Origin: Strigamia acuminata
Taxonomy: Eukaryota
DNA length: 64,000 nt
Reading direction: 5' to 3'
NCBI GenBank assembly: GCA_949358305.1
Contig: OX442314.1
Location: forward strand, 29,946,001-30,010,000
Below the pieces are notes generated by a model. It was not told where the DNA came from and ran no database searches. It worked only from the letters and a program-made list of their open reading frames with translations. Both the position numbers and the translations under genes were made by a program. Every line of letters starts with the position of its first letter. Position 1 is the stretch's first letter. This document shows, in pieces, positions 4,104-43,154 of this stretch.

Positions 4104-4123
4104 TTGAATTCCCCCCCCCCCAA

Positions 4124-5775: not shown

Positions 5776-5791
5776 AGAAATAGCTGATGCT

Positions 5792-14765: not shown

Positions 14766-17700
14766 AGCCGACACATTGGCGTAAATATCGGCAGCATATT
14801 CACCAGCTTCCTATAAAAACAGCCGTTTATAACTAAATGTTATATTGTACTGTATTACACATTGTAATACAGTAATAGACATTGGGTTTGTATGAAAGGA
14901 ACCTTCTCGAGGGAAAAAAAAATAATAGAAGTTAATGTTTTGTCATTGTGTTATGATTCGTTCGGTCAATTTAAACGCAGAGATCTCCAAAAGGAGATGG
15001 AGAAGAGGCCAAAATAGGATAAAAGAAATTACAAAATTGGCCAAAAAATGTGAATTTTACAATGAAAATGCATTAATTGATAATTTTGCTTCTTACTTTG
15101 AGTATTTCATAATGGTAGTCAAAATTTGAAGAGGCATTCCATAATTTTATAGAATTGTTTGCGAACATAGATGATGGATGGAGAAAATATAAAAGCTTGA
15201 AATGATGAACATCATTGTGCAGGTGTTCAGCTAATGTTTCCTTAAGCTTTACTATTTTTTCAGATTCTCGGCAATGGACAATGAGTGGAAAATGTATGAT
15301 TTTGTCTCTAGCCAGAATAACTGTTTTGACGACTGGATAATCGAAATAAGTACAAATAGAAGAGGAAATTAGGCAAATTGATATGAAAATCAGAAATAGT
15401 AACATAATGTTCTTCAGCTTATTTGCATTTTGCATTTTTGGCTTCGTTTCTAGAATTGCTTGAATTTTGCCTTTTAACATGGAATTTGATTTAGTTGATT
15501 TTCTGCACATCAAAAGAGGCATTTTGTAGCAGTGAACAAATATTTCGACGAGTGTTAAACAAGATATTCCAAAATAGAGTCCGATGTTTCCGCCAATGTC
15601 GCATAGTAAAGAGATAATGTCGTAAGAAAATTGTTCTTTAAATGTAAGAACATAATTATTCACAACAGAAACATCAAAGATATTTTCAGAATAGGGTATT
15701 GTATCAAAGGATGTGCTGAGTTGTGTCACGTCACACAAATCAAGACATTTGCACTGTTTTATTGCATCTTTAGATTCCAAAAATTCCAATAACTTTGAAA
15801 ATTGATGTCGTACAACATCGTCCTTGCATTCTGGTAGGTTTCTTGCATCGTAAAACGGATATCTGGCAAATGTTTTATTGATGTGCTTTAGAATGAATAG
15901 AAAACTGATGCAGTGCAAACACTTGAGCCAGTTACATTAAATAACTGATACAGAGTGACCAAAAACAACAGGATTCTGGAAAGTATGGTCAATTGTTTTC
16001 CATCAACTTTTAATCATGATGTAAAACACCTTGAGATAAATATTGATCACAATGGTTTAACAAACTTAAAAACAAACACTGTCCATAAATATTGCTTAAT
16101 TTTAAAATGAATGTCTTCATTTGTGTTTTCATCCCGGTGGTACTCACAAATAAAAACATTATTTGATCAATATTAAAAATGTACCTGCAAGTTATATTTT
16201 TCGTGAGGCAAGGATACAAACAGTCGTATAAATTGTTATCGCAAGGATTTCTCTTTGTGTTGAGGAAGTGATACTGAAAGATAATTGGTTAAATTTCAAA
16301 TAGACAACCGGAATGTATTTTGTGCAATATTTAATTTCAAGAATCTTGAAATTGTGTGTATTTAGACAATTTGGCACACAAGAATGTACTAAGTTATATG
16401 GGTGTGGAAGGTATGTCTGTGAAGGGTCCCTTAATTCTAGGGAGCCCCTAAATTGCAGAAAATTAAAACAAATGACTTCATCACTCTGCAGGTACAAAAT
16501 TGTGACTGATTCACGGCCACTGACAGCACGGAACCCACAGGGCCAGTCCAACCCCACCCTACTACAAAAAAAAAAAAAAAAAAAAAAAAGGTGGAGTTGA
16601 TAAGGAATAATGACCACTATGACATCAAGTCCAGTCAAATTACTCCAATAACCAATGGAAAAGGCATCTCGGTCATATGGGGCAGGAGTGGGGGTATAAA
16701 GGGCTCAACTTCCTGTTTGGACTCCAGAGTTGAATACTAGTATGATCAACACATAGCAGTTCTCCGCTCATGTTCACCATGATGACACTCAGGGAATGTG
16801 CCGGTACGCCATTCCAAGTACTGTGCGAGATTTATCGGCCAAATGTATTGAGGATGTACCGTATCGCCAATCAACAACCGCAGACAAAATGGCACGTCGG
16901 AGCCACGAGCTATGCGACATCGCGCACCAAATGCACGACCTAATCAACAGAATGAACAGTAGATCGACCACACTGGCACATGGGGTTAACCCTATAACAA
17001 CGTGTGCTGCATGTGGTTGCTGGTAGGCTGCAGTAATGCAGCACTAGCAATAGGAGAGGCATAAGATACTGACCCCGAGATACTGAATAAAGGTCATAAA
17101 CCATTAAATAGAGTCTCTTGTGCTCATTTCTATTTACGTGTCATGCATCCGGCGTTATTTGGGCTTTCCGGTGCTGGTAGGGCATTCCGTTGTCCAAATC
17201 GCATCTTTCCACTCTCTCAAAAATGGTATTAAAATTAAAATTAAAATTAAAATTTTGTGCAAATTTCTGATAATGGCCAACGAAAAAATAAAATATAACC
17301 GTGTGGAACATGCCAAATTGGAGTACATCAATCCAGCACATACCGGTACACATTTGATATGGATCACAAATATATTCTGTTAGATTTTTTTTTTAATTGT
17401 GTATTTTTTTTATATTTATAAAATTTCTTAGTGTCTTACTTTTTCCAAATTAGTTTTAGCAATATGTCTAGTTGCTGTCAAATTCACTCTATCCTTATGA
17501 GTGGTTTCAATATCCAAGTATTTTGCTTTCAGTAGCAAACTCACCCCTTCTTCAAAAGCATGTGGATAATACTTGCCTTGTGGAAAAGCTATTTTCACCT
17601 GAAAAATTTAAGAACCAGTCTAACAGTTTGTACAGAACATAATACACAAATTTAATAACTTTAGCAACATTAAAAACTTACAATAACGTCCAAGCATTCT

Positions 17701-18406
17701 GCTGTGAATTTTAGTTTGATCACCATCTTGTAATCAGAATTTCCATAAGGGAGCAGTATTGCTAATCAACAATTATGGATTTTGAAATAATAAATGCATA
17801 ATAACTTTTTTCTTAACTTACGACTTGAAACTTGAGCAGTAGGCTGCATAATGTTATCATAATTTTGAATTGTCAGGTTAATGTGTGATTTTCCCTGAAA
17901 AGAATTGCTTAATTATTTGTAAAATAAAGATAATAGAAATGGATCTTTACCTTTTCAAAGTGTGCATCAGTTATGTAACTTGGTATACTGGTATATTTTA
18001 TAAAATCAAGGAAATTATGATGACTACTATTGAAGGAATTATCACAATTTTCGAGGTCGTCACTTCTGCCATTCACTTTTGCTTTATACTCGTTCAACTC
18101 TCGTGTTGTATATGGGAAAACATAAACACATGGGAAAATACCATGCATTGTTTTAATTAAGTGTGAATCAACTGTTGTTGGTTCATCCAAGAAATGCAAT
18201 ATTCTATCTGAAGTTTGGTAAACACACACTGCCAAATTGACAATAAGTAATAGGAATAACAAATAAGATGTCTTTTTTTTCTTTTTTGAAATGTTTTTTA
18301 GTGATTTGACAAATCCTGGGGTCTCTGCCATGACAGTGCGAACAATAAGTTGCACTTTTCTTCTTCTTAGTTGTTGAATTCGGCCAAATGGTTGAAACAC
18401 ATCCAT
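14766..18406 (-). pseudogene. Concatenated DEG/ENaC gene, copy C (divergent, partly degraded, interrupted by the Gypsy element)
   Basis: TM1 exon ending 17951 (VYQTSDRILHFLDEPTTV...FPCVYV), small exons 17894-17822 and 17761-17682, exon ~15862-15097 with CKCLDLC...LLCDIGGNIGLYFGISCLTLVE then a linker and a second TM1 (...YFDYPVV...FPLIVHC); middle exons could not be joined in frame. Confidence 0.75.
16418..17219 (+). mobile_element. Possible solo-LTR-like insertion in copy C
   Basis: Higher-GC block with TG...CA ends, TATAAAA ~16695, AATAAA ~17086; no TSD found. Confidence 0.35.
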
Positions 18407-20633: not shown

Positions 20634-23600
20634 TTATACAAATAGAATTGTCATTATGAAAAATTGGCAAATTATGATAGCTAACACAGAAACACCGAGA
20701 AGTAGACCAAAAATGTTGCCTACATCAGAAACTAAGGCAACAAATGAATATTTAAATTCTTCAAAAAAAAATTCTATTTTATTGGTAGTGAAAACAATGT
20801 TCACTATCGATGTATCCGGTAGCATAGGTGCAAAACTGAATTCGTTAATTTTGAAAATGGATTGTTCACAAGGTGAGGGACAAGCACAATCTTTCGTAAT
20901 GTCGGTGTTTGTGTGTATTTCATAGTATAATGTTCTAACTGCTTTGGCCGCTGCTGAAGAATTGCAGAAAGCGATGTCTTTCTTGATGGCAAATGGCATA
21001 CTGTTGGATAAACAAGAACATAAATGATCGAAACAAATTCCACTCATTTGCATAAATTTACCTGCACAACTGTTTACTTTTTATCTTCTTGTCCAAGCAC
21101 TGGTCTTTACAGTGGGAATAATCTATTGGATCTGAAGTACAAGGCTTAAATTTTGTGTTTAGATAATGTACCTAAAATTAATATTTTTTAAACCGGTTTA
21201 TAATCATATAAATATTAAAATGATTTATTGTACATACTTTCAATCTGCTAATCAAACTCGAAGTGCTGAACGAAGAAGGCAAAGCAGAGTTAAAATCGTC
21301 CGCGAAATTAGGAGTTTCACTTGCAGTGATATACACCTAAAGGTAACAAAATTATTGCATAGCAGAGGGTATGAGTTTGAATTCAATGCATTAATTTACC
21401 AAATATATTACATCTCATTTTGTATATTGTCATAAGAATAATTTTTTGTCAATTTTTAACATTTCTTATGTGTATTCTAGCTTAAAGGTCAAAAGACTTT
21501 GTAACTTTCTTTACATTGTGTTCAGCCGAAATACAGACTACTATGGATTATGTGTTTACTGTTTTAAAATAAACATCCAAAACAAATTTTAAGTTAAAAT
21601 AAGATTTAAGTTATATACTGTATTGTGATGGCAGGATCTTAACCAGAGCAGCTAGGAAACCAGTTACCCTTGTATGGGACGCGTGCTTACAGAAAATAAG
21701 AGACAAGGACTCCAGACTGTTGGGTTGTTGACATTTAATCCGTTGTCCAGGGGTCAGAATCTTAGTGTAACCTACGTGCTGGCAGTGCCACTTGGGCACG
21801 CCACACCAGCAACTGACCCGTCACACACACAGAGGTTATCCCATGAATGATGTGTTCGATATCTTAACTATTCCCTCGTACTTACCATGGCCCATGCAAC
21901 CAATCGTGGAGGCTGTGGTAGATTCATCAGCACTGAGCGTCACACGTGTTTATAAACTACAGACGCTACAGGAATCTTTGCGTGACTAATGCATCTGACG
22001 GAATTATTGACTCAAAACGGCAAGTTCCCTGCTCAGAATGCGCTAACCTCACCTCACCTCACCTTAACAGGGTCAAATAAAACAAAACAAAGCAAAACAA
22101 ATCAATCTAAAACCCTCACAGAGGAAAAGAGGATAAATTCAAAAATTCAACGCTGTTTTGGTCATACTGTGTAAATGACTTTTAATGATGAGTTTATTGT
22201 TGTTTATTTAATTTATTTTAGCATTATTAGGCCTAATAATAGCCTTAATACTGCTAAATAACAACTGGAATTGGACAATCGTCTGCGCAGAATGGGGCGC
22301 GCAGTACGAATTTAGCATCAAGATACCGTGCGCGAACTGTAGGTCAGACCACTCCGCAAAGGAGGGATGACCTTGGGGTCATTGGGCAGTGTGTGACAGT
22401 GAAGCAAATCACCCATGGGTGGGCAAGCGGTCACAATATAGCTTGTCTTTAGCAGAACAGTTGTGTGTTCTGACTGTACTACGTATAAGGATTAAAATAA
22501 AACGTAACGTGCACAATAACACAAAATAATGAAGTTAGTTTGAAACTTACTGATGTGAAATCAGGCTTGCATGGATTGTTTTCCACTTCGAAGATTATTT
22601 CAAGAAACATGGTGAATAATCGAAATTTTATTGGACCTAATGAGAAGAAGTTTATTCAACTATATTTTTTCTTTGTGGCTTAAAACTCATTAATCACCAA
22701 AGGAATGTTTGACACACGTTCCATGCGGACTTACAATGTTCGTATAATTTCGAACGTCAAATAGGTCTCCCGAAAATGGATTCTGAAAATTATGTTATGT
22801 TTTAATCTATCAATTTAATAAAATCGTTTTGACAAATTCACGATGGTGCTCCACATTGATTTTACTTACAAACATTTGGATAAGTTTCAAATCCGATGGT
22901 GCTGTATAAGTAAGATCCCACAGTTGATTTACAGTTAATCCTTTCCAGTTGACAAGGTCCAACATGTCAATATTGCATTTTGTATCATTCGGTTTGTGGT
23001 GGTTTAGATATTCTTCTTTTAATTCGATTAGAGCTGGGTTGTGTGGTCCAGCACAAATGATAATGTTCGGATACGTTACTGTTGGCAAATCTTCTATCAA
23101 TACGCTTCTTTGAATGGGTTTGTTCACAAATAATCGAATTCTTTGTTGAACCAAATACCCTCCGAATCCAAAAACACAAAGATAATGAACCCAAAAGAAT
23201 GGATTTTTAATTGACAGCAGAATTTGCATTCTTTTAGTCTTTTGGCTGGTTTTGAAACAGGTTTCAATTTTTCTTGTCATGTGATTTTTTGGGCCAAATG
23301 GCTTCTTTGTATACCATTTTGCAATGACCCAAACGAATTTGATCAAGAAAAGTGAAGAAAATCCTAACCAAAGACCCAAATTTCCACCAAAGTCAGAAAA
23401 AAGACTGATAAGATCGTAGATCAAGCGTTCTTTCAAAATGGTAACATGATCGTCGAGCAAATACCAAGAGATCGATGATCTGCCACTGCCATCGTGTTCC
23501 AATTCGAATTTGGGTAAAATCAGAGAGTCTTCACAACTTCTTGTGCATCTGCAGTCGGACACGGGTGTAGGTGTCATAGCATCGTGCATGTTTTCTTTGT

Positions 23601-25907
23601 ACATACGTAGCGTATTTTCGGAATTGCTGCAAAGCTGAATGTGGCTTCTATTTGGATAATTTGGCCTGTAGGGTAACCTGTCGAGAAATGTGTTAAGAGA
23701 GTAAAGATTTTGTTTTTATAAACAATTTGCCAAACTCACCAACATGGATTTTTGTCCAAAATCTTATTCACGCATTTATTGCCACATTCTATGTATTCCT
23801 TCATCAGAATGCAAGGTTGTTTTTTTGTGTTTTTGAATACATGCTTAAACAAATCACGATTCGGTTAGAATATTTCCTCACGCCTGAGCCAAGCTATCAT
23901 AACAGTAAGTTGAAATCACATATTTTCTCTTTTTTTTGGATCATTTGATTCAAGACTTCCGACAGTACTTTCGAATATTCTACTTTATAGTGTTACAATG
24001 TTCTCTGACATGTGATTGTGAATTTATTGTCAGGCCTTTTTTGAACTAACAAAATCGAATGATGGGTTTGCTCACAAAGCAAAACTCATTGTTTTTTATT
24101 CATCATTGTTACCTTTCTTGGGTAAAATCCGATTTTTGCAGACATTCCCGAAGTTAAGGCAAATCCTGCTTGGAAATCCAATGGCCATGCAGTTAATACC
24201 TAAAATTAGATTTTGCAACTGTAGATTTGTAAGTGGAATTAAACCAATTGATGTCATCGTATGGTTCGAGAAAATTTATTGTCCGCATAAAATAGTTTTA
24301 TTTAGACTGAGGCTTACGGCTTACAAAAATGTATACAGTAAAATATAGGATCCTGTATTGTAGGACTGGAAACATCACGGCGGAGGATCGAATCGTTGCC
24401 ATCCGAATCAGCGGATTGGGATCCAGCATTAATCTCTCTCAGCAACAAGATCCAAAACTTTTGCAGGAGGGATCTCCGAAAACGGATGGCCAAAAAAAGC
24501 TGGCTGAAAAGGAGCGAAGGATGCAGACTCGAGCGGGAGACTGAACTGTGAGCACCTGGACTCAATTGTAAGTTTGGGCTTAGTACTTTGTTGACATATG
24601 GTCTAATGTAATTGGGTTATTATTACAAGTATATGGTATTACTTTATTTCATTTTCATTTAGCTGGCTTTCACAGGGCACCTTGCGCTCTTTAGTCTATA
24701 TTTTCTCATGTTCTTTCCGGCTGTCACCAGACGGCGCCATATATCATTCTGTTATCAATCGCTAAGATGGCGAACACAAGCATTAGCGATGCCACATTGT
24801 TTTCCCAGGTCTGTAAGTTTATTTTGTGCAATTAAATTTTTTTGTTTCCATATTTACAGTTAGTATTCAATGCTATGCATGCCTGTCAATATCGTGTACT
24901 TCGCTATTGGCAGTGTTGTATCTCATTCATTAAATTGTGAACGCGTTCAAGTTCGTGTTTATGACTATGTGAAAGTGTTCACGTTTGCTTCACTAAATTT
25001 TTTTCTGAATTAAACTAAGTTCAAGTTTATGAACTTGAATTCAAAGTTTTAACAAAGGACTTTCCAATCCCCAGGGATGATGGTTATACGTTTTATATAG
25101 ACAAAGTTTAAAATATTTTACCAGCGTTAGAGATTTTCCTCGTATCAATTCCGGTATTTTTAAGTAGTAACCCTTTGTAGCACATATTTCAGGCCCACGC
25201 AGAGTTCTGTTGTCTAAAAATTAAAAAAAAAACTATAAATTGCTCGAATCAATAAGAGATCGATTTTATAAATTCACCTTCAACTTTGCTACAAGTACCT
25301 CTTGGATGCAGTACTTGCGTAATAGTTGCATTTTCTAGGACATGTGTCTAACAAAATCAGACACACATTAGAATCAAAATTGAATTTGAACTTTAATAAA
25401 CATCTAGTGCGTAGTTTGTTACAAACTTACTTTTCGCTGACGCCTACTGTCGAAGGAGAAGTAGTCCTCAACGATATTAAAACTGTAGTTCAAATTCCAC
25501 AACTTGGTAAGATCAACATCTGGTCTTGTTACGAGTGCATCCAATGGGTTCAGAGAAGCCATGTCAGTCGCTTCTAAGTCGGACGAGTTATAGTAATCCA
25601 ACACGTACTGATTTAGTGGTATGCAAACATGAGTGGGTCGAAACTGATACTTTTCGATCTTCTCTTCAAAAACATCGACTGCAGTTGGACTATCCAAGTA
25701 ATAAGAAATGCGATCGTACATTTGATAGCAGTATATGAGAATGCAGACACCAAGAAGAACAGCCCAAAAGAACCGAAATGCAAGTGTTTTGTTCTTATCA
25801 ATCATTGGTTGAAACTCTCGAGGAATTGTTGTTTCGATGTTTTGCCTTTCGAGTAAATGTCTCACTTGATGGCGGATTGTTCTGCGGGATCGTCGTTTCA
25901 TTTCCAT
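20634..25907 (-). CDS. Concatenated two-subunit DEG/ENaC (pickpocket-like) channel, copy A; 11 exons, 794 aa
   Basis: Exons 25907-25431, 25347-25278, 25213-25122, 24199-24113, 23843-23740, 23677-22870, 22782-22698, 22636-22551, 21336-21238, 21171-21062, 21000-20634; all introns GT-AG; total 2385 nt in frame; two sets of TM1, xPxGTC, thumb cysteines and TM2 (SDFGGNLGLWLGFS; SDVGNIFGLLLGVS). Confidence 0.88.
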
Positions 25908-26589
25908 TTTACCTGTTGCTGAACATTGGAATAAGTTTTTAAACGTGTACATAATTTGACGCATATTTAGATGTTGTCGAGCATATTGAATGGCTCCCAA
26001 GAATTTATAATTTATATGGGAAAAACAACGGCTGCAACACCAGGTCTGAATAGAAAACAAACTCTCAGAAACGTATAATTACAGGCAAGGCATATTAACA
26101 GTTCCCAAAACTGCATTATTAATAATATTTTATTTTTATACCGTAATTGCATTTTTATCTCCTTTGTATACTAAAGAAACTTAAAAATTGAAACGAAAAG
26201 TATATATTTTCTTTTTTCAGATAGTAGAGCTTGCCTGCAAACCACGCTTGTGTTGAGTAATAAGGATCGATCCAAATTTCCTGTTAAGGATACTGCTTGA
26301 TGGCCTACAAAGGTAAAAAGCATATCTTTTAAAAAAAAATAGTAGAAGATTAATCAGCAATTAAGCTTGCAATGGTTCGTCCAACACCAAATTAATATAC
26401 TTTTATGGCTATTACAATCGCGATTACATTGTTGAAATTGGTGACAAACGTAAATTTTGATTTTTTACACAGGGAACTCTTCTTATTTTTGTACTTTTAA
26501 GTCCATTGTTGATCTGTTGTGGAATTTTTTACTTACTTGTGATCACTTTGCTGTGGCACACTAGAACGACTGGACCGGGCATTTCGACT

Positions 26590-27800
26590 TGGGATCTGCC
26601 CGTAGCCGAATGACTAGACTCCGCAAACTGCTGTAAGCCCGTTGAAAAATCGAGGCCAATCTTTCGCTGCCTTCTCTCCATGGGAGTTGAACAACATAGC
26701 ATCCTTCTTCACGATGACGAATTGTTTCTTCGAATGACTGGAGAACTTCACGGTCCTTTTGATCAATCTTATCAGTGACTCCAATGTGCTCCAAACCCTA
26801 CCATCGCTCGAAATTATCTGAAACGAACAACTGGACACTCAGCGTGTTTGTGTTCCCCTTCGCAAAAAGCACATGGTGACAACCCAGGACTTCTGCTCGT
26901 CAAACCAGACGATGACAAAGTTGCTCCCTACTCAATTCACTTAGGTGTTACAACTTGACCAAACCCCTGACCAGTGGACTTGACATTTGCAGGAACTTGC
27001 CTTGCGCGAGTTCTAGCGACATTCTCCAGGGTGCTCAGTTCTTGAAAGAAGGTCATCAACTGACTAATCATTGGAATGGACTGGTAGTCTTGAGAACATT
27101 CCCATCTGAACCCAATCTCGCTTGGTATAACTCTGATCACAAGCAGAACCAGAATAACACTCATCCCTTCCACGTCTACCTACAGACTCTTCAAACCTCG
27201 CAAATGTGACTGGCATGTAGAGAATAATGACCGCAAAGCAACAATATCTTGAACCCGGTCCAGTACAGAAAGTCATTGCAACCCATCAATGTGCATTTGG
27301 ACAATCAAAGTTGCTCTGCGGAACTGCATTTCCAAAACTTCCAAGGCCTGTACTTTGTTTCGGGCTTCCAGAGTGAAGTTTGAGATGGCTGCAGCTGCCG
27401 TACCGGTGCAACAAGCTTGCAAGTATGCAAATTTGTCCACATCGCTAAGCTTGGAGTTGGACCCGATTGTAGAATGGAACCGGTCAGCAAAGGTCTGCCA
27501 CTTGAGAAAGACACCGTCAAACTTGGGGACGTCCAGAATGAATAGCTTGGCCTTTGTCCATGTCTGACCAGTTGTGTTGCCATGTGAAGAGTCGCTCAAA
27601 CTCCTCGACTGCAGGGATAAAGCGTCATCATGAAAATCTTCATCACCTTCCCGTGGTGTGTGCAGCAACGATGTATGAAGCAAAGGCGAGTGAGACAAAG
27701 GAGAGTGAGGCAAGGGCGAGTGAGGCAAGGGACTTGTGGACTCCTTCCAAACAGAGGGACTTGATTGTCAATAAAGAAAACTTAGAAGAATGAAAGCATA
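26590..27800 (-). mobile_element. Degenerate BEL/Pao fragment (gag and pre-RT region)
   Basis: LDVPKFDGVFLKWQTFADRFHSTIGSNSKLSDVDKFAYL (BEL gag) and EHIGV...FEETIRHREEGCYVVQLPW; broken by stops and frameshifts. Confidence 0.85.
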
Positions 27801-29516: not shown

Positions 29517-30807
29517 TGTGCATTAGGTTCATACAAATAGAATTGTTATTATGACAAACTGGCAAATTATTTAAGGAATAACAAAATTGCCGACTTGTGC
29601 AAAAAATCTACGATAGCTAACACAGAAACACCGAGAAGTAGACTAAAAATGTTGCCTACATCAGAAACTAAGGCAACAAATGAATATTTAAATTCTTCAA
29701 AAAAAATTCTATTTTATTGGTAGTGAAAACAAAGTTCACTATAGATGTATCCGGTAGCATAGGTGCAAAACTGAATTCGTTAATTTTAAAAATGTATTGT
29801 TCACAAGGTGAGCGGCAAGCACAATCTTTCTCAATGTCGGTGTTTGTGTGTATTTCATAGTATAATGTTCTAACTGCTTTGGCCGTTGCTGAAGAATTGC
29901 AGAAAGGGGTGTTTTTCTTGATGGCAAATGGCATACTGTTGAATAAACAAGAACGTAAATGATCGAAACAAATTCCACTTATTTGTATGAATTCACCTGC
30001 ACGACTGTTTGCTTTTTATCTTCTTATCCAAGCACTGGTTTTTACATTGGTAATAATCTATTGGATCTGAAGTGCAAGGCTTGTATCTGGTGTTTAGATA
30101 AAGAGCCTGAAATTAATATTTTTAAATCAGTTGATAACCATATAAATATTAAAATGATATATTGTTGTTCATACTTTCAATCTGGTAATCAAACTCGACG
30201 TGGTGAACGAAGAAGGCAAAGCGGAGTTGAAATCGTCCGCAAAAGTAGGAGTTTCACTTGCGATGATGTACACCTAGAAGTAACAAAATTATAGCATACC
30301 AGAGGGAATAAGTTTGAGTTCCATCCATTAATTTACCAAATAAATTACATATCATTTTGTATATTGTCATCAGAATAATTTTTTTGCCAATTTTTAACAT
30401 TCTTTAGTTATGTGTATTCTAGCTGAAAGGTCAAAAAACTTTGTCACCTACTTTACATTATATTCAGCCGAAATACAGACTACTATGGATTATGTGTTTA
30501 CTGTTTTAAAATAAACATCCAAAACAAATTTCAAGTTAAAATAAGATTTAAGCTGTATATTGTGATGGCAAGATCTTAACCAGGGCAGTTAGGGCACCAG
30601 TTAGGCTGGTGTGGAACGCATGCATACATAAAATAAGAGATAAGGACTCCAGACTGTTAAATTAGGTTGTTGGCATTTAATTTGTTGTCTAGGGGTCGGA
30701 ATCTCAGTCTAGCCTACCGGTATATGCTGGCAGTGCCGCTTGGGCACGACACACCAGCAACTGACCCGTCATACAAAGAGAGGTTATCCTCATGAATGAT
30801 GTGTTTG

Positions 30808-31017
30808 CAGGGGCGGATCTAGCTTTTCGGGGGCCCGGGGCTTGAGGTTTTTCCGGGGCCCCTTTATCGAAATTTTTAATAGCGACCTTTCTTCTTTTTT
30901 CTTTTTTTTAGCGACTTTTTTTTTTTTTTTTAGTACATTGCCTTGCGTGTTGGGGCCTCCTAGAATTTGGGGGCCCTGGGCTCAAGCCCCATTAGCCCTA
31001 TGCTAGATCCGCCCCTG
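30808..31017. mobile_element. hAT-type MITE
   Basis: 16-bp perfect TIR CAGGGGCGGATCTAGC, 8-bp TSD TGTGTTTG/CGTGTTTG; absent at the paralogous site ~21850. Confidence 0.85.
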
Positions 31018-32796
31018 CGTGTTTGGTATGCTTAACTATTCCCCATAGTTACCCACTTGGGGTGGGGCGATTGAGCAGTGTGTGACGGGGGTCACGCTTG
31101 AGTGATCAAGTCGTAACGATTTTACAGCTTATCTATAGCAGAACAGTTGTGTGTTTTGGCTGTACTACGTATAAGGATTGAAATAAAACATAACGTGCAC
31201 AATAACACAAAATAATGAAGTTAGTTTGAAACTTACTGATGTGAAATCAGGCTTGCATGGATTGTTTACCACTTCGAAGATTATTTCAAGAAACATGGTA
31301 AATAATCGAAATTTTATTGGATCTAATGAGAAGAAGTTTATTCAAAAAAAATTTTCCTTTGTGGCTTAAAAATCATTAATTACCAAAGAAATGTTTGACA
31401 CACGTTCCATGCGGATTTACAATGTTCGTATAATTTCGAACGTCAAATAGTTCTCCGGAAAATGGATTCTGAAAAGTATGTTATGTTTTAATCTATCAAT
31501 TTAATAAAATCGTTTTGACAAATTCACGCATGGTGCTTCACATTGATTTTACTTACAACCATTTGGATAAGTTCCAAATCCGATGGTGCTGTGTAAGTAA
31601 GATTCCACAGTTGATTTACAGTTAAACCTTTCCAGTTGACAAGGTCCAACATGTCGACATTGCATTCTGTGTCATTCAGGTGTTGGTGATTAAGATATTC
31701 TTCTTTTAATTCGATTAGAGCTGGGTTGTGTGGTCCAGCACAAATGATAATGTTCGGATACATTACTGTTGGCGGATCTTCTATCGATACGCTTCTTTGA
31801 ATGGGTTTGTTCAAGAATAATCGAATTTTTTGTTGAACCAAATACCCTCCAATTCCAAAAAGACAAAGATAATGAACCCAAAGAAATGGATTTTTAATTG
31901 ACAGCAGAATTTTCATTCTTTTAGTCTTTTGGCAGGTTTTGAAACAGGTTTCAATTTTTCTTGTAATGTGATTTTTCGGGCCAAAGGGCTTCATTGTATA
32001 CCATTTTGCAATGACCCAAACAAATTCGATCAAGGAAAGTGAAGAAAATCCTAACCAAAAACCCAAATTTCCACCAAAGTCGGAAAAAAGACTGATTAGA
32101 TCGTAGATCAAGCGTTCTTTCAAAATGATGACATGATCATCGAGCAAGTAGGTATAGATCGATTGTCTGCCACTGCCATCATGTTCCAATTCGAATTTGG
32201 GTAAAATCAGAGTGTCTTCACAACTTCTTGTGCATCCGCAGTCGGACACGGGTGTAGGTGACATTGCATCGCGAATGTTTTCTTTGTACATACGTAGCGT
32301 ATTTTCGGAATTGTTGCAAAGCTGAATGTGGCGTCTATTTGGATATCTTGGCCTGTAGGGTAACCTGTCGAGAAAGTGTTAAGAGAGTAAAGATTTTGTT
32401 TTCATAAACAATTTACCCAACTCACCAACATGGATTTTTGTCCAAAATCTTATTCACGCATTTATTGCCACATTCTACGTATTCCTTCATCAGAACGGAC
32501 GGTTGTTTTTTTATGTTTATGAATTCATGCTGAAATAAATCACGATTCGGTTAGAACATTTCCTCAAGCCTGAGCCAAGCTAACAGTAAGATGCATTCAC
32601 ACGTTTTCTTTTTTTTGGAACATTTGTTCCAAGACTTCCAACAGTACAGTACTTTCAAATATTCTACTTTACAGTAGATCAGTAGAACAACTTGCGCAAT
32701 ATTGTTTGCATGTAGTGGTGACCACAAGTAGAGTGTTGACACAACAAGATCATGGTGTTGACACCTTTTGAGTCACCACAGATAAGGTCATTTTCC

Positions 32797-33062
32797 CGGG
32801 GTTTCTTCATTTTGTCGCCCTTCATTTCGTCGCCGTGTCATTTCGTCGCCGTTTTTGGCGACGAAATGACACCCAAAACGGAAAAAGGGCGACGAAATGA
32901 ATGGCGACGAAATGATACGGTTGAATCACCAAAACAACCCAAACCGAACAGAAGGGCGACGAAATGACACGGCGACGAAATGAAGGGCGACGAAATGATA
33001 CGGCTAAGTAACCGAAACAACCCAAACCGAACACGAAGTGATGGGATTAAAAAACGAAATGA
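32797..33062. repeat. Cluster of direct and inverted ATTTCGTCGCC/GGCGACGAAAT motifs (MITE subterminal-like)
   Basis: Repeated 11-mer in both orientations. Confidence 0.6.
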
Positions 33063-34200
33063 TGGCAAACTTATGGCAATATTATGGCAAAATTGTTGCC
33101 AAATTCTGGCAAACTTGTGACCAAATTATGGCCAAATTCTGGCAAAATTATCGCTAAATTCTGGCCAAATTCTGGCCAACTTGTGGCTAAATTGTAGCCA
33201 AATTATGGATAAATTGTGGCAAAATTCTGGCCAACTTGTGGCTAAATTGTAGCCAAATTATGGATAAATTGTGGCAAAATTTTGGCCAACTTGTGGCTAA
33301 ATTGTAGCCAAATTATGGATAAATTGTGGCAAAATTATGGCCAACTTGTGGCTAAATTGTGGCCAAATTATGGCAAAATTGTTGCCAAATTATGGCCAAA
33401 TTATGACCAACTTGTGGCTAAATTGTAGCCAAATTATGGATAAATTGTGGCAAAATTCTGGCCAACTTGTGGCTAAATTGTGGGTTTTGTGGCCAAATTA
33501 TGGCAAAATTGTTGCCAAATTCTGGCCAAATTCTGGCCAACTTGTTGCTAAATTGTAGCCAAATTATGGATAAATTGTGGCAAAATTCTGGCCAACTTGT
33601 GGCTAAATTGTGGCCAAATTATGGCAAAATTGTTGCCAAATTCTGGCAAACTTGTGACCAAATTATGGCCAAATTCTGGCAAAATTATCGCAAAATTCTG
33701 GTCAAATTCTGGCCAACTTGTGGCTAAATTGTAGCCAAATTATGGATAAATTGTAGCAAAATTATGGCCAACTTGTGGCTAAATTGTGGCCAAATTATGG
33801 CAAAATTGTTGCCAAATTATGGCCAAATTATGACCAACTTGTGGCTAAATTGTAGCCAAATTATGGATAAATTGTGGCAAAATTCTGGCCAACTTGTGGC
33901 TAAATTGTGGGTTTTGTGGCCAAATTATGGCAAAATTGTTGCCAAATTCTGGCCAAATTCTGGCCAACTTGTTGCTAAATTGTAGCCAAATTATGGATAA
34001 ATTGTGGCAAAATTCTGGCCAACTTGTGGCTAAATTGTGGCAAAATTATGGCAAAATTGTTGCCAAATTCTGGCAAACTTGTGACCAAATTATGGCCAAA
34101 TTCTGGCAAAATTATCGCTAAATTCTGGCCAAATTCAGGTTAAATTCTGACAAACTTGTGGCGAAATACTGGCGAAATTGTGGCCAACTTGTGGCGAAAA
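33063..34200. repeat. ~11-bp satellite (GGCCAAATTnT variants) with a 427-bp higher-order duplication
   Basis: Identical translated blocks start at 33337 and 33764. Confidence 0.93.
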
Positions 34201-34439
34201 TCTGAATATCAACTCAGATTTTTAAAATATTTAATAATTCCCAAGACCGTGGCTACAAATTGTTCAAAACTGTATACAAAAAAAATCGATTTTTGCAAAT
34301 TAAAAGTCCAACCATAATTCCAATCAAAAAGTTATTGACCCCATCGTTTTCAGCGGGATTTTCCACACTGGAAACTTTATTTAAACATTCCAATCGGTTC
34401 TTTTTTCAAATTTTAGGTTTTTCATGATCGAATCCAAAT

Positions 34440-34960
34440 TTTGCACTAAATTCCTCATTCGGTCGCCGCTAAGATCGCCCGAATCGGTACTTTTTCTCAA
34501 CCGATTCGAATTTTAAAAAATACAGACTTGTGCAGATTTTGATTATCTTTCGAATGAGCTTGGTTTCAGAATTATCTGACCTCATTTTGATACAGAAAAC
34601 ATAAAAAAAAACATCGAGACGAACATTTTCAAATTTCTCCATTCGATCAATCGCCCGAATCGCTACTTTATTTCACCCGAATCAAAAAATAAAAAATGCA
34701 AGCGCGTGCAGAATTGTCTGCTCTTTAAAATGAGCTTGGTTTCAGAATTTTCCGAACTCATCTTGATGTAGAAACAATTGAAAAACATATTGCGACGAAC
34801 ATTTTCAACCGAACTTCCATTCGGTCACCCGCTAAGATCGCTCCTTAACGCTACTTTTTATTCATCGAAAAATTTTAAAAAGGACACAGACTGGTGCAGT
34901 TTTTCATTCTCTTTCGAATGAGCTTGGTTTGGTAATTTACAAATCTCATTATAAACCGCC
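34440..34960. repeat. Three diverged ~185-bp tandem units containing CTTTCGAATGAGCTTGGTTT
   Basis: Motif recurs at ~34548, ~34723 and ~34911. Confidence 0.7.
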
Positions 34961-35383
34961 ACCAGGTGGCGCCACCGTTCCTCGAAAATTACAAAAGTTA
35001 CACACTTCCTGCATCGTACTTGTTGTTAATTTATGAGAGGCTGTACTCGTATCTGAGCAAGCGTCGAGATAGCCAACATCAATCCGATCGCGGTAATAGT
35101 CATTTTCCGACTATCTACCGCCATTGGGTGCCAGATTATCAATCAAAGAATTTCCGTCCTCAAAACCCCCTAGACCATGCCGCATATATTTTTTTCTACA
35201 TCATCACTACCGATCATCCGCCCGTTACCGATTGCCAGACATTGCTAGCGATCATCACACATCATCATCATGTGTTTTTGGATTTTTTTCTTTTTCTTCT
35301 AACAACTCCCACGAACCTTAACTGATCTTTTTAATGTGATAGGAATTGGGCACTTATTGACTCGTGATATGTCTGGGGAAAAT

Positions 35384-36001
35384 TGTGACAATCTGTGGTG
35401 ACCACGAGGTCACAAAAGTGTTTTAATTAGTTATGACTTAATAAATAGTGATTTTAGTATTCATAATAAAATGATTGTCAGATTACTGCGGGAAAACTAG
35501 CTATACTAGTTTTACCGTTTCTGCGGGATTGACGTAACAACGTCATGAATTTGCATAATTCTCCAAATTTATGCGAATACGTCATTTCCGGTCCAACAAG
35601 TATTTAAACCCGTGTCTGACCGGAAACCCCCACTATATAGATACCAGAGCAACATTAGCATCACCACCTCACCGTCAGGCCGTTTTACCGGATTGATAGA
35701 GGATCGATGCCCGTTGCCAATTACATCTATAAACAGAAGTCACAGATATTATCGTAGCAATACTACGATTGTAATATCTCCCGAAGCGAAGCGTTTGCGA
35801 ACACGTGTTTCGCCAGACGCCATTACCCTAGACAACAGAAGCCACGTGTAAGACTGCCGTGCAGCAACAAATCGTATCCGCCGACAAGGATCCGAGACCA
35901 CAACATTGTTAAGTATTATTGTAATATTACAGTGTTTCAATAAAAAGGTTATTTGTAAGATATTTGTGTAAAGTTTATTTACCGGAACTAAGGTTACGAC
36001 A
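35384..36001 (+). mobile_element. Possible solo LTR
   Basis: TGTGACA...CGACA ends, TATTTAAA ~35601, AATAAA ~35939; no clean TSD. Confidence 0.35.
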
Positions 36002-37634
36002 AATCGCTACCGATGTCTGGCGATCGGTAATGGGCCGATAATCAGTAGTGATGATGCAGAAAAAAAAATGCACAAAGGCCAAGCATATACGAAGCATTCC
36101 ACCGCTTCCGACGAGCGACCCCAAGATGAGACCAACAACTAACTTGTAAGTCAAGGCCATCCATCCATGACCACGCAAATCCAATGACGCATTCTTGGAT
36201 TCCATCAATTGTAATTTTATTTTATTCTAGCCTTTTTTAGTAAACACTATACAGTTTATCTTTACATATAGTGTAATAAGTCATTTGTGTACACAGATCT
36301 TCAAGTAATCAAACCACAGTGTTACTACTTGACCGGTAATTTTACATCGCTGGATGTATTCTTAATGTGTCCTTTCAGGGTTTTGTGATGTGTAAATGTG
36401 CATTTGTTGAGGAGTCAAGAAATGGCTGCCATTGAGTTGGGTGAGGAACAACTAGGAACAACTAGAGTCTTTGATTACTCTCTAAGAACAAGGGGGGTCA
36501 AGTCACCCTGGGGGGTGACTGTGTCACAAACAGATGTGGAGGAATGAAAATGAGTGGAGTGGAAACACTCCAATTCTCTAACATGTGATAGTGAATTTAT
36601 TGTCAGGCCTTTTTTGAACTAACAAAATCTAATGATGGGTTTGCTCACAAAACACAACTCATTGTTTTTTATTCATTATTGTTACCTGTTTTTGGTAAAA
36701 TCCGATTTTTGCAGACATTCCCGAAGTTAAGGCAAATCCTACTTGGAAATCCAATGGCCATGTAGCTAGTACCTGAAATTAGATTTTGCAAGTGTATATT
36801 TATACAAGTAAATGGAATTAAACCAATTGATGTCATTGTATGGTTTGACAGAATTTATTATCCGCACAAAATAGTTTTATACAGGGTGGTGCAGAAAGTC
36901 TGGTTCACAGTAAATAATTTCCAAACCGTTTTAGATGATGATTTAGCAAAATGATTGTAAGGGTAGTATGTCGGGGGAAATCCAATTATGACATCCAACT
37001 TGACCTCAGAGGTCAACTTCAAGGTTATCCATATTGTAACTCGAGAACCGTGACAGATAGAGAGAAAAAGTGAATCAGAAAGTTGTAGAGGACCATCTAA
37101 TTAGTTTAGAACTGTTCTTAAAAAAATTATTTCTTCCCCAAAAGTTTTGAGAAAAAAAGGTTTGAAATGGTAGTCTACTCAGCTTAGTAACCTAAAACTA
37201 TTGAGGCAATCAAGCTAATCCTCAATTAGAACACTTTATTGGGTGATACTTGTAACTGGAAGAGAGGAAAGGAAACACAAAAGAAAGGAAATAATTTATT
37301 TTGGAAATACATTCCAACATGATTGTTTTAGGTTACAAAGCTGAGTAGAGCGGGAGACCGTGAGCTGTGAGCACCAGGACTGAATTGTAAGTTTGGGCTC
37401 ACAAGGAGACCGCAGGAGTGTGTAATACACAATTGTTAAAATTATTGTTAAATAAAGGATTCACATGACCTGAGCAATGTTTCTTTCAAATATTTAAATG
37501 CAACGCTCTCTCACATTGTTACAAACAGTTACAACACAAAGGATTCTTTACTGTGTGTTGAAACACTATTTTTTGAATTTTTGAGTAAAAAGATCAAGTG
37601 TAGCACTATACTTGGTGATTAGCCTGTTCAAACT

Positions 37635-37945
37635 TGTGACGGTTATAAAACCGTATTGATTAATGTTCACACTAGATGGCGCTGTTCATTTAACGCGCGC
37701 AGTTTAAACTTGATAAAATCAAAGATTCGTGATAATTAATTGTTACAATGACGTGAATAAAATATAAGTTATTTTATTTGGCATAATAAAGTGTTAGCTA
37801 CTTGAGATATTGATTCTACCGAATCAATATCACGTTTTACTTACCTTTCGAAGAGAACCAATCGGACTCTTCTGGACCCAGTTCACTACTAGGTTGGGAT
37901 TAAAGCGACCTGCGAATCCATGGATTTGGGCATCTGATTGGCTAT
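37635..37945 (+). mobile_element. Partial diverged copy of the U3 end of the 13216-14765 LTR
   Basis: TGTGACGGTTATAAAACCGTATT...CACTAGATGGCGCTG...AACGCGCGCAGTTTAAACT colinear with 13216-13525. Confidence 0.9.
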
Positions 37946-39420
37946 CATCCAGAGAGTCTTGCGTAATTGCAAGGGTGTTAAGAACTATGCCGATAATGTG
38001 ACGGAGGTGGGTTCATCAGTTATGGATCATCACAACAATTTGGACAAAGTGTTAGTGACATTGAAGGAAAATGGATTGACACTGAACCGGAAGAAGTGTA
38101 AATTTGGAATGGAAAAATTGGCATTTCTGGGTAATTTGGTCACATCAAAAGGAGTGGCATTAGGTGAAGAGAAAATTCGAAAAATGAAAGAATTGCGAGA
38201 TCCGGAAGATGTGCATGAATTGAGAGGAGTTTTGGGTTTGGCAAATGCGTGTGAAAAATTTTTGCCACATTTAGCCAACATGGTCGAGCCGATGAGACGG
38301 TTGACACGCAAAAATGCAGTCTGGAATTGGGATCAAGAGCAAAAGAAAGCATTCCAGCGACTTAAACAGGCTGTGGCTGAGGCGACAATGCTGAATTATT
38401 TCAAGAAGGATTTGGAAACCTTTCTAGTCGTGGATGCAGGACCAAATGGCCTTGGAGCAGTGTTGACGCAGCGAAAAAAGGAAGGAGGACTTGCGATTAT
38501 TGCGTTTGCCAGCAAAGCGTTGAGTGAGACGGAAAGAAGATACTCACAGACAGAAAAGAAAGCTTTGGCAGTTATTTGGGGTTGTGAGAAGTTTCACATG
38601 TATTTGTTTGGGAGACAATTTACGGTGGTTACAGATCATAAACCGTTAGAAGTCATTTATTCGGCAACCCCAAGAGCTTCAGCGAGAATTGAGCAATGGT
38701 TATTGCGACTGCAACAATATAAGTTTGCCATTAAATATGAGAGCGGACTGACAAATATCGCGGATCCTCTGTCTAGGCTTTTAAAGACTGAAGGAAAACC
38801 TGAAAGATCTATTGAGAAATTGACTGAACATTATGTCAATTTTATGGTGCAACATGCAATTCCAAAAGCGGTGACGATTGAAGAAATTATCCAAGCAACT
38901 GGAAATGATGCTGAGCTACAACAAGTAATAACAGCAATTCAAACAGGAAGTTGGAACAATGCGCAAAAAGATTTCAAGCAGATAAAAATGGAACTGACCA
39001 GCGTTGGTGGTGTGGTTTTGCGAGAGAACCGTATCGTGATTCCATTAGAACTACGTAAGAAGATTTTGGCTATTGTGCATGAAAGTCATCAAGGGATAGT
39101 GCGAACCAAAGCATTGCTGAGAGGAAAGGTTTGGTGGCCAGGTATGGACACACAATTAGAGGACATGATTCGAGCATGCATCCCATGTCAAGCACAAGCG
39201 CAACCAGATCGTGTTCAACCAATGAGGATGACGGACTGGGCTACGAAACCATAGAAACACTTGGCGGTTGATATTTGTGGACCATTTCCAGATGGAAGCA
39301 GCGTTGTAGTGTTGGTAGATTATTACACCAAATGGCCAGAAGCAAAAGTGATGACATACAGCACGTAAAATTGTTGATTGGTTTGAAGATGTGTCTCACC
39401 CTTCAGCCAACGGTCTTGCA
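37946..39420 (+). mobile_element. Degenerate Gypsy pol fragment (RT C-terminus, RNase H, integrase N-terminus) from a different family
   Basis: YADN (mutated YxDD), VDAGPNGLGAVL, TDHKPL, IADPLSR, HESHQG...WWPG...CIPC; stop at 39254. Confidence 0.9.
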
Positions 39421-40213
39421 GCCATATCGCCATCCATTTGGCGCTGTTTACTGCCCGCTTTAGAGGTGAATTTATCAAGATCCAACTGTCAGGTGTGGTA
39501 TCCCAAGGAAACCATGGAAATCATAGATAGAGAATGTTTTTTGAAGAGAGAGAAAAAGCAAAAAGAGTGTAAACAAAAATAATAAACTTCCAAATTGCAA
39601 AGACTTGTTCAAAACTGTGGTTTGAGCACAGTCTCTCCACAAGCTGAGACAACTCAGAACTTTAAAGAAGATGAATAAAATTCAGAAAATCAAAGTTACA
39701 GGCTGGATTCCCAGTCTTTTTTCAAAGCTGGTAGCCACCTGAACGCACAGATATCGTTCCTACGACCTAACGAACTCTTTGTACCAGTTGAGCACTTCAC
39801 CATCAGTATCCCCGTACCTCCGGCAGCTTGCCCTGCTGTCCGAGTCCCAATCTTTCACAGTTCTTGGGTTGTATCCAACTTGCAACTGTTTCCGACCAGT
39901 ACACGGGACAGGGTAGGGATTGAAACGGTGTGAACCCTGGAAAACACAGAACAGCAGCAGGGCAACTCACTGCAGATGAATTGCCTCAGCAACTTTTAAG
40001 TCAGTCGGTCTCGCGTGTGCCCACACTTCGCTACCTACCCGGATCAAATTTTTTGAAGCTACGTCCTATTGTACGTCCTATTGTACGTCCTATTGTACGG
40101 AAGTAAAGAAGACGAGAACCGGGAACAAGAAAGCGTGTGCGGAAGTCGAGAAGACGAGACCCAAGAACGTAAAAATTCGCGAATGGCACGAGAAGCTTGG
40201 ACACAAATCAATT

Positions 40214-40801
40214 TTGAAGAAACTGAAAAACGACGTTGCAGAACAAATAAGTCGAACATTAATGGAAATGGCGCGATGTATGATTTTGCAGTCGAGTGAG
40301 GAATCGAGTGTGGAACTAGACGAAAACGAGAACGAAGTCGAAATTTCCGAGAACGAGAACAAAGTCGAAATTTCCGAGAACGAGAACGAGAACGAAGTCG
40401 AAATCGAGATCAATGACGAAGTCGAGAACGAGACGGAACAAGGGGAAGTTGAAACTCCCCAGATCAAAAACATACGACTGCCTCCGCGACAATCTTCGAG
40501 AACTCGGAAACTGTATTCAAATCAAAATGGAAAGCCACCAGGAAGAATTCGATATGAGGAGTATTAATTAGTAAAATGTATTATTTGGATTGTAGGGAAA
40601 CAAACACTCAGGGGAAGTGTTGTGATTGAGTGTGTTGTTGTCCCACCAGGTGAACATTCTCACCTGACGTATTGGCACCGACCAATCAGTGTCGTGTGCA
40701 CCATTTACCCCTGTACTATTGTTTGCAACTTTGAATAAAATATTCACCATATTGATTTACCCAACCACGCGTCTCCATGTTGTAATTCCCAACCTTTGAC
40801 A
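40214..40801 (+). mobile_element. Internally deleted Ty1/copia-like remnant with 3' LTR (40618-40801)
   Basis: VAEQISRTLMEMARCMILQS matches the copia integrase ERxNRTLxExARxM motif; PPT GGGGAAG, then TGT...ACA with AATAAA. Confidence 0.65.
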
Positions 40802-43154
40802 CTAAAAACTACACTACTTTTACAACTAAAAAAAATATTTGAGACTGTATTTTTATTATTATACCAATGCCTTCTTGGCTTTAGATGCTTCTGGTCCAAA
40901 GGCACATTTATGGCTTCATTTGGGTCAAAATGAGGAAATTTTCACCAATTGCAATGCCTATTGTATGTTTGTATATAGTACACTGTATACATTAAAGAGA
41001 GTAGGACTAGAATAACCTCCATCTTCTCATTTCAGTCGAGACTTGACTTGATCTTGCTACGTTCATAAGGTATGTGCGGGAAAATTAAGCTCCCACAATG
41101 CAAAGCACCCCTCTCGACCAATTGAAGCATCGATGTGTCCTCTTGGAAAATTTAACAAGAACTTTCCAGTCCGCAGGGATGATGGTTATATGTTTAATAT
41201 AGACAAAGTTTAAAATAATTTACCAGCGTTAGAGATTTTCCTAGTACCAATTCCGGTATTTTTAAGTAGTAACCCATTGTAGCACCTATTTCATGCCCAC
41301 GCAGAATTGTTTTGTCTACGGAAAAAAAAATTACAAATTGCTCGAATCAATAAGAAATCGAGTTTATTAATTCACCTCCAATTTTGCTACAAGTACCCCT
41401 TGGATGCAGTTCTTGCGTAATAGTTACATTTTCTAGGACAAGTGTCTAACAATATCAGACACACATTAGGATCAAAATTAAATTTGAACTTTAATAAACA
41501 TATATAGTGCATAGTTTCTTATAAACTTACTCTTTGCTGACGCTTACTGTCGAAGGAGAAGTAGTCCTCAATGATATTGAAACTGTAGTTCAAATTCCAC
41601 AACTTGGTAAGATCAACGTCAGGTCTTGTTATGAGTGCATCCAATGGGTTTAGAGAAGCCACGTCTGTCACTTCTAATTCGGACGATTTGTAGTAATCCA
41701 ACACATACTGATTTAGTGGTACACAAACATGACTGGGTGCATGGTAGCCCTCTTCCATCTTTTCTTCAAAGACATCGACCGTAGTTGGACTATCCAAGTA
41801 TTAAGAAATGCGATCGTACATTTGATAGCAGTAGATGAGAATGCAGACACCAAGAAGAAGAGCCCAAAAGAACCGAAATGCAAGTGTTTTGTTCTTATCG
41901 ATCATTGGTTGAAACTCTCCAGGAATTTTCGTTTTGATGTTTTGCCTCTCGAGTAAATGTCTCACTTGATGGCGAATTGTTCTGCGGGATCGTCGTTTAC
42001 TTTCCATTTTACTGTTGCTGAACAAGTAACGGCAAAACTGAATGTATAATTTGACGTATATTTAAATGTTGTCGAGCATATTGAATGGCTCCCGAGAATT
42101 TATAATTTATACGGGAAAAACAACGGCTGCAACACCAGGTCTGAATAAAAAACAAACACTCAGAAACGTATAATTACAGGCATATTCACAGTTCCGAAAT
42201 TATTAATATTTTATTTTTTATACCGTAGTTTCATTTCTATCTCGTTTGTACACTAAGGAAAATTAAAAATTGAAATGAAAAGTATATGTTTTCCGTTTTC
42301 AGATAGTAGAGCTAGCCTTCAAACCACACTTGTGTTGAGTAATAATGATCGTATCCTACAAAGGTAAAAAGAATATCTTTAAAAAAAAATAATAGAAGTT
42401 TAATCGGCGATTAATCTTCCAATGGTTCATCTAACACCAAATTAATATACTTTTATGACTATTACAATCGCGATAACATTGTTGAAATTGGTGGCCAACT
42501 CAGGGAACTCCTCTTATTTTTGTACTTTTAAGTCCATTATTGATCTGTTGTGATCACTTTGCTGCGGCACACTAGAACGACTGGACGAGTCATTTTGACT
42601 GTTTAAAACAGCTTGTGACCGCTTGGCCACCCACGGTGACCAGTGTCACTCCACGTGGAGTGGCAAAGGGCGACAGCCTTAAGACCACTGAACAGTGTGG
42701 TTAAACTTCGTTAAAAACTAATTGTGTTTCCCCAATTGGAATTGATTCTCCTTACATAAAAGAAGGATCTGTATGTCCACCAATAAGATCTGATCAGTGG
42801 GGTTTGATTACATGTGTAACAATCACACTGTTTTGACTGTACTAAATGATTAATTTCACCAATAGATGGCGCTGATGTTATTTAGCGGGAAATATTACTT
42901 ATAAACGTTTGTGATTCATACATAAAGTAAATAAAATCATGTTTTATGGCTGTTTCGAGTCAAATCTGGTTTTTAACATATTTATTCATACAAATATTTA
43001 GTTACAAATAGTTTATGATAATATTCTTAGAATTTATCATAAAACTAGGTTATGGATTAGAACCACCCTTCGCATCTGCACCAAGTTCACACTACACCTG
43101 GATTAAGTGAAAAGACTTAAATAAAAATTTTAAAAAAATTGTTGTATTTTATTA

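What the first reader, a model, noticed from the sequence alone, without database searches (positions are those of the whole stretch)
20634..25907. Naturally concatenated two-subunit DEG/ENaC channel in a single polypeptide
Seen: exon 23677-22870 encodes the end of one subunit (CRCTRSC...LISLFSDFGGNLGLWLGFSSLFLIKFVWVIAKW = TM2), a ~38-aa basic linker, then the start of another (FFWVHYLCVFGFGGYLVQQRIRLFVNKP...YPNIIIC = TM1 plus an FPAVTxC-like motif), with no stop or intron. The fusion therefore cannot be a gene-model merging artefact. Flanking exons complete both subunits (794 aa, 4 TM). Established: DEG/ENaC/ASIC/pickpocket channels are trimers of separate 2-TM subunits with both termini cytoplasmic, so a TM2-TM1 link is topologically sound and is how laboratory concatemers are made. 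Inference: a covalent dimer cannot fill a trimer evenly. It would enforce a fixed 2+1 heterotrimer with a monomeric partner, leave a subunit outside the pore, or cross-link two trimers. I do not know of a characterised natural example.
Basis: partly seen in the sequence, partly recalled or inferred. Interest (0 to 1): 0.95.

Follow-up and report, generated by a model that had tools for sequence, protein, structure and literature searches.

The report
Natural two-subunit DEG/ENaC channel chain
This gene, likely from a centipede, has one unbroken reading frame joining two different subunits of a normally three-part sodium channel; it belongs to a large family and likely fills two of the three seats beside a separate third subunit, while shrimp and crab relatives are predicted to carry all three in one chain.

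Summary
Confirmed and larger than reported. Eleven GT-AG exons give 794 aa with two Pfam ASC units; TM2, a 40-residue basic linker and the next TM1 share one open exon, and DNA contigs of three runs bridge it without a difference. Intron phases 0-1-0-0-2 repeat in both halves. The window holds a broken 90% copy and a distant paralogue with the same one-exon junction. Strigamia maritima T1ITL7 is a full-length orthologue (37%). Of the best 150 database hits, 32 have TM2 followed by TM1; 24 belong to this family, whose first and second units form separate clades, so one old fusion was multiplied whole. The gate glycine (PDPNaC1 Gly375) is kept in 26 of 26 first units and replaced by Asn/Ser in 8 of 9 second units. 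AlphaFold2 models two complete folds (pTM 0.69), closest to the centipede antennal channels PDPNaC1 and BRTNaC1. Decapod crustaceans encode separate three-unit chains. Most likely an asymmetric 2+1 sensory cation channel; stoichiometry, partner, stimulus and a transcript across the linker are not shown. Nine literature searches found no description.

The parts
20634..25907 (-). Gene A: 11 exons, 794-aa two-unit DEG/ENaC
25431..25907 (-). Exon 1: N-terminus, TM1 and first strands of unit 1
   Evidence: Pfam ASC E 1.6e-7
23740..25347 (-). Exons 2-5: ectodomain of unit 1; introns 1-5 have phases 0,1,0,0,2
   Evidence: colinear with T1ITL7
22870..23677 (-). Exon 6, the junction exon: end of unit 1, linker, start of unit 2
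   Evidence: open frame; two ASC stretches; bridged by DNA contigs
23320..23412 (-). TM2 of unit 1 (aa 366-396), canonical D-x-G-G; gate Gly375 at 23385-23383
   Evidence: alignment to PDPNaC1 and BRTNaC1; numbering
23200..23319 (-). Basic linker, aa 397-436, predicted cytoplasmic helical hairpin
   Evidence: model of the orthologue
23131..23199 (-). TM1 of unit 2 (about aa 437-459), weakly hydrophobic here
21062..22782 (-). Exons 7-10: ectodomain of unit 2; introns 6-10 repeat phases 0,1,0,0,2
   Evidence: a contig of a close relative lacks intron 6
20634..21000 (-). Exon 11: thumb end and TM2 of unit 2; Asn768 at the gate position (20717-20715); stop 17 residues after G-x-S
29530..42007 (-). 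Copy B: tandem duplicate of gene A, about 90% DNA identity, junction exon 32364-31557 open; stop at codon 69 and frameshift in the last exon, so a pseudogene in this assembly
15097..18406 (-). Gene C: distant paralogue (21-23%), six exons open for 541 aa, same intron phases, TM2-linker-TM1 again in one exon (15862-15097); its remaining exons were not found in the window

Best explanation
The gene has one open reading frame for two different, complete DEG/ENaC subunits joined head to tail, and the product likely occupies two neighbouring seats of a trimeric cation channel, with a separately encoded single subunit predicted to fill the third. Shown: the fused frame, the two ASC units, the repeated intron phases, the family and the conserved difference at the gate. 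Inferred: a tandem duplication lost the stop and spacer, the copies diverged and were then duplicated as one cassette; the short linker runs on the cytoplasmic side from TM2 of unit 1 into TM1 of unit 2 and fixes order and ratio; unit 2 puts one Asn/Ser at the narrow lower gate, making an asymmetric pore. By kinship with BRTNaC1 and PDPNaC1 and by the birth-and-death pattern, the channel is likely a sensory (chemical, pH or heat) depolarising channel; the stimulus is untested.
For: Units sort by position, not by gene: unit 2 clade 98/94, unit 1 clade 91/86; grouping the two units of the gene A lineage is rejected, p-AU 0.002. Unit 2 is as conserved as unit 1 against Strigamia (41% and 36%) and keeps 12 ectodomain cysteines, so it is not decaying. 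G-x-S to TM1 distance is 50-76 aa in 26 of 26 first units. AlphaFold2 on a 36-row alignment of the orthologue: pLDDT 77, pTM 0.69, two full folds, four long helices, TM2 and the next TM1 joined through an 8-residue loop; a pTM this high for two equal halves suggests a defined mutual placement (inference). Best folds PDPNaC1 (TM 0.71 by target) and BRTNaC1. Gly375 of PDPNaC1 forms a 0.39 A gate (PMC12714832 section 9); its equivalent is Gly in 26 of 26 first units, Asn/Ser in 8 of 9 second units. Three-unit chains in decapods (12 proteins; unit i best matches unit i in 362 of 396 comparisons) fit the idea that linked units fill one trimer. Single-unit relatives with a Gly gate exist in Strigamia gene models (T1J809, T1ITH0) and BRTNaC1 is a cloned 431-aa monomer.
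Against: No partner subunit is identified and none lies in the window. Laboratory ASIC1a dimers give currents with no added monomer, with cleavage or truncation bands (PMC4529235 passages), so a partner is not required in principle. One second unit keeps Gly (T1IPM9), and 3 of 109 single-unit hits outside the family also lack it, so the gate change is not unique to fused units; it also traces to one ancestral event, so the counts are not independent. The Strigamia proteins are automatic models from an annotation that also holds plain merges. The structure model is of the orthologue, not of gene A, and AlphaFold2 knows ASIC trimers.
Confidence: 0.5

Rival explanations
1. Dimers assemble only with each other: three chains build two cross-linked trimers (1-2-1 and 1-2-2), clustering the channels and perhaps coupling their gating.
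For: Artificial ASIC1a dimers are functional alone. The window holds only two-unit genes. A 40-residue linker could reach a neighbouring trimer (inference).
Against: The model makes the linker a tight helical hairpin. One of the two trimers would carry two Asn at a position that is a 0.39 A constriction with Gly.
Confidence: 0.2
2. Only unit 1 lines the pore (three chains per channel); unit 2 hangs outside as a tethered accessory, ligand-catching or trafficking subunit.
For: Unit 2 lost the gate Gly in 8 of 9 cases; its TM1 is weakly hydrophobic in gene A.
Against: Unit 2 keeps the upper-gate Asp (Asn in one) and the G-x-S glycine in the nine listed family members, and is as conserved as unit 1; pTM 0.69 suggests packing between the units.
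Confidence: 0.13
3. The fusion is a co-expression device: the chain is cut in the linker, or spliced across equivalent introns into chimeric single subunits, and these fill the trimer or its third seat.
For: All five skips between equivalent introns stay in frame and give 398-407 aa single units. The Strigamia model T1IS61 (514 aa) joins the front of unit 1 to the back of unit 2. Laboratory concatemers are partly cleaved.
Against: An R-x-K/R-R motif is present in only 2 of 26 linkers and the linker is predicted cytoplasmic. T1IS61 is not one of the clean skips and may be an annotation error. The linker has no strong splice site.
Confidence: 0.13
4. Artefact or dead read-through of two neighbouring genes.
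For: Copy B is broken; an open 40-codon stretch occurs by chance about 6% of the time.
Against: Same one-exon junction in three genes of the window, DNA contigs without a difference, a colinear orthologue, 24 family clusters, dN/dS about 0.5 between A and B, and 120 bases leave no room for a stop, UTRs and a promoter.
Confidence: 0.03

Closest known systems
PDPNaC1 (PDB 9JF7), Scolopendra antennal proton-dissociation channel
   Same: Best fold match (E 2e-16, TM 0.71 by target); short ectodomain, no HG motif, TM2 motif aligns residue for residue
   Different: 421-aa homotrimer of separate 2-TM chains; about 19% identity; Gly at the lower gate in all three seats
BRTNaC1 (PDB 8YMR), Scolopendra heat and proton receptor
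   Same: Best sequence match among solved structures (E 3e-12); second fold match
   Different: 431-aa monomer; falls outside both unit clades; the pH and heat sites were not tested here
Strigamia maritima T1ITL7 and paralogues (uncharacterised UniProt entries)
   Same: Same two-unit layout, 37% over the whole length, unit to unit
   Different: Automatic models with no functional name; whether their junctions lie in one exon could not be checked
Laboratory ASIC concatemers (PMC10329638, PMC4529235)
   Same: Head-to-tail TM2-to-TM1 links that give working channels of set composition
   Different: Engineered, keep both native tails plus a flexible linker; here the link is natural, short and joins 23%-identical units
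Internally repeated channels of other families: K2P, two-pore channels, Nav/Cav (recalled, not tested)
   Same: Gene duplication and fusion giving a pseudo-symmetric pore
   Different: There the repeat number divides the four-fold symmetry; two does not divide three

Membership tests
DEG/ENaC (PF00858) | ASC profile match above the curated cut-off, for each unit | tested here: met
   exons 1, 6, 11 pass; orthologue 111 bits, 4 stretches
DEG/ENaC (PF00858) | Palm, beta-ball, cysteine-rich thumb between two TM helices | tested here: met
   predicted in both units of the orthologue; 92 PDB matches at E<=0.001, all those listed are DEG/ENaC; 11 and 12 ectodomain Cys
DEG/ENaC (PF00858) | TM2 signature D-x-G-G...G-x-S | tested here: inconclusive
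   met in unit 1; unit 2 has Asn for the second Gly
DEG/ENaC (PF00858) | One subunit (2 TM) per chain | tested here: not met
   two units, four TM helices: each unit is a member, the chain is a variant
DEG/ENaC (PF00858) | Trimeric assembly and cation current | not testable with these tools
ASIC/ENaC proper | Pre-TM1 His-Gly motif | tested here: not met
   absent before both TM1s of gene A and of gene C; also absent in PDPNaC1
BRTNaC1/PDPNaC1 orthologues | Clade with BRTNaC1 | tested here: not met
   BRTNaC1-like P0064 lies outside both unit clades; PDPNaC1 was not in the tree
BRTNaC1/PDPNaC1 orthologues | Antennal expression, heat or proton gating | not testable with these tools
   no tissue data

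The most novel reading that the evidence does not exclude
Centipedes run a combinatorial sensory receptor system in which dozens of covalent two-unit 'tuning' chains with an asymmetric gate each combine with a shared single subunit, and arthropods have concatenated DEG/ENaC subunits at least three times independently (centipede dimers, a Strigamia three-unit family, decapod three-unit chains, some with a half-size middle unit), giving single-gene heterotrimeric channels.
Probability: 0.35. Interest if true: 0.93.

Novelty: new variant of a known kind. Interest (0 to 1): 0.83.

Why it matters
DEG/ENaC channels are described as trimers of separate chains, and their subunit ratio and order are a long-running question that is approached with artificial concatemers. 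Natural two- and three-unit chains give evolved examples with fixed order, show which pore positions may break symmetry, and the three-unit decapod chains should be expressible from one cDNA, which removes the usual need to guess partner subunits. They also point to an overlooked receptor expansion in centipedes and crustaceans that pipelines may split or discard as merged models.

Full report
Observation. On the minus strand, eleven exons from 25907 to 20634 with GT-AG at all ten introns give 794 residues without a stop. Exon 6 (23677-22870) carries the end of one DEG/ENaC unit, a 40-residue basic linker and the start of a second. Pfam ASC passes its cut-off on exons 1, 6 (two stretches) and 11; the eight short exons gave no ASC hit. 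The halves are 23% identical over 370 residues, and the intron phases 0,1,0,0,2 occur once in each half, the mark of a duplicated gene whose last and first exons merged. Contigs of three public runs from two studies cross the linker with no difference; one may be the window's own source. A contig of run X6, 90% alike and matching neither copy fully, lacks exactly intron 6, which supports that splice in a close relative but does not reach the linker. Hydropathy finds three TM segments clearly; the third is weak here (1.27) and stronger in relatives.

Neighbourhood. Copy B (42007-29530) is about 90% identical, keeps the junction exon open, but has a stop at codon 69 and a frameshift in its last exon. 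dN/dS between A and B is 0.49 overall and 0.45 in the linker, the latter on only six changes. Gene C (18406-15097) is 21-23% identical to A, open for 541 residues, has the same intron phases and again has TM2, linker and TM1 in one exon; retrotransposons lie where its remaining exons would be, and a profile search of the window did not find them. An open 40-codon frame arises in 274 of 4286 local non-coding windows, so chance could explain one linker but not three.

Family. The junction exon finds Strigamia maritima T1ITL7, 805 aa, 37% identical over the whole length and unit to unit. The organism of the window is therefore likely a centipede; it was not determined. A full HMMER scan gave 236 hits, of which the best 150 were examined; 32 have a TM2 followed within 130 residues by a TM1. 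I assign 24 to this family, by tree where the segment was long enough and by alignment for the short ones and P0009; 12 of the 24 are named Strigamia and 12 were not looked up. In a 45-row IQ-TREE tree of the thumb-to-TM2 region, second units form one clade (98/94) and first units another (91/86); the rows were chosen after a 151-row FastTree, so the grouping is partly circular, but an AU test rejects joining the two units of the gene A lineage (p 0.002). One old fusion was thus multiplied as a cassette. The G-x-S to TM1 distance is 50-76 residues in 26 of 26 first units. These database proteins are automatic models, and the same annotation holds plain merges; the window's one-exon junctions are what validate the layout.

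Structure and pore. AlphaFold2 on a 36-row alignment of T1ITL7 gives pLDDT 77 and pTM 0.69, two complete folds, and a linker in which TM2 runs on as a helix, turns through eight low-confidence residues and continues into TM1 of unit 2. The best folds and sequences in the PDB are the centipede antennal channels PDPNaC1 and BRTNaC1. In PDPNaC1, Asp372 and Gly375 are the upper and lower gates (0.86 and 0.39 A) and Gly378Ser shifts selectivity (PMC12714832, sections 9 and 10). The Gly375 equivalent is Gly in 26 of 26 first units and Asn or Ser in 8 of 9 second units (Asn768 in gene A). Of 109 single-unit hits, 93 have Gly; 13 of the 16 others fall in the second-unit clade and look like split or partial models, and 3 lie outside it.

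Mechanism. Shown: fused frame, two full units, family, gate difference. Inferred: the chain fills two adjacent seats of a trimer and a separate monomer the third (0.5), giving a pore with fixed order and one bulky gate residue; a sensory role follows from kinship and from the tandem, fast-evolving, pseudogene-bearing array. Rivals: three dimers forming two linked trimers (0.2), since artificial ASIC1a dimers conduct alone (PMC4529235 passages); unit 2 outside the pore (0.13); cleavage or splicing to monomers (0.13), since all five skips between equivalent introns stay in frame; artefact (0.03).

Wider pattern. Two Halocaridina hits have three units. A search with one returned 12 of 6146 candidates, all 1015-1289 aa with three units, from Halocaridina, Eriocheir, Portunus, Penaeus and five short Logan contigs; unit i best matches unit i in 362 of 396 comparisons. 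The units of the two that were in the tree form their own clade (support 92), so this looks like an independent concatenation that fills a trimer exactly. A second Strigamia family shows a 1-2-3 order in three models.

What is known. Nine searches of the open-access library listed no paper on natural multi-unit DEG/ENaCs. Seen: PMC9974506 parts 1-2 of 5 and passages; PMC12714832 part 1 of 9, sections 9-10 and passages; passages only of PMC4529235, PMC10329638, PMC5203786, PMC8438182, PMC10507113, PMC9822975, PMC5952958, PMC7067487 and PMC12804983. No supplements were opened, and family tables there could list such proteins; subscription papers, including the BRTNaC1 structure paper, were not searchable. 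The sequences are already in UniProt and RefSeq as uncharacterised entries. The comparison with K2P, two-pore and Nav/Cav channels is recalled.

Verdict. Real, conserved and apparently undescribed: each unit is a DEG/ENaC, the chain is a new variant of the family. Interest 0.83.

Noticed in passing
P0041, P0071, P0152-P0161 (database proteins): Twelve crustacean-type proteins of 1015-1289 aa with three TM2 motifs or profile hits each; named ones are from Halocaridina, Eriocheir, Portunus and Penaeus. Five come from Logan contigs of 3.4-4.7 kb that the coding sequence nearly fills (1039 aa on 3362 bases), so they are not merged neighbours. Eight have a middle unit of only 203-218 aa. Worth a study of its own.
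   Followed up: partly
Strigamia T1IZL2, T1IU28, T1IL99, T1ITG7 (P0008, P0011, P0051, P0012): A second, separate family with units in the same 1-2-3 order in three gene models (matching ends 93-97% identical); possibly a three-unit chain, possibly merged arrays.
   Followed up: partly
P0060 (ENA contig of 3782 bases): 727-aa two-unit protein with a 31-residue gap between units, in its own clade with monomers: a possible further independent fusion.
   Followed up: no
window 3-15000: Pao/BEL polyprotein (3-4103) and a gypsy-type gag and pol (4899-9907) with long open frames, plus a 502-aa ORF without Pfam match (10994-12502), lie where the rest of gene C would be.
   Followed up: partly
window 32676-41150 and 26500-27800: Introns 3 and 4 of copy B are swollen by tandem repeats and retroelement remains (37938-39254); Pao fragments lie upstream of gene A.
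   Followed up: no
window 22170-22345: Very high-copy short repeat in intron 8 of gene A, with inverted joints in the contigs: likely a small inverted-repeat element.
   Followed up: no
window 43155-44267 (-), 52126-53901 (+), 60710-61681 (-): Long single ORFs: a protein kinase, a PDZ plus PTB protein, and a CHORD-CHORD-CS protein; SRPK-like, RGS12/loco-like and CHORDC1-like are recalled labels.
   Followed up: no
Strigamia T1JET5 (P0010): A 'single' 410-aa model that starts in sequence matching the linker of T1IQZ3: likely a split-off second unit, or a natural re-fission.
   Followed up: partly
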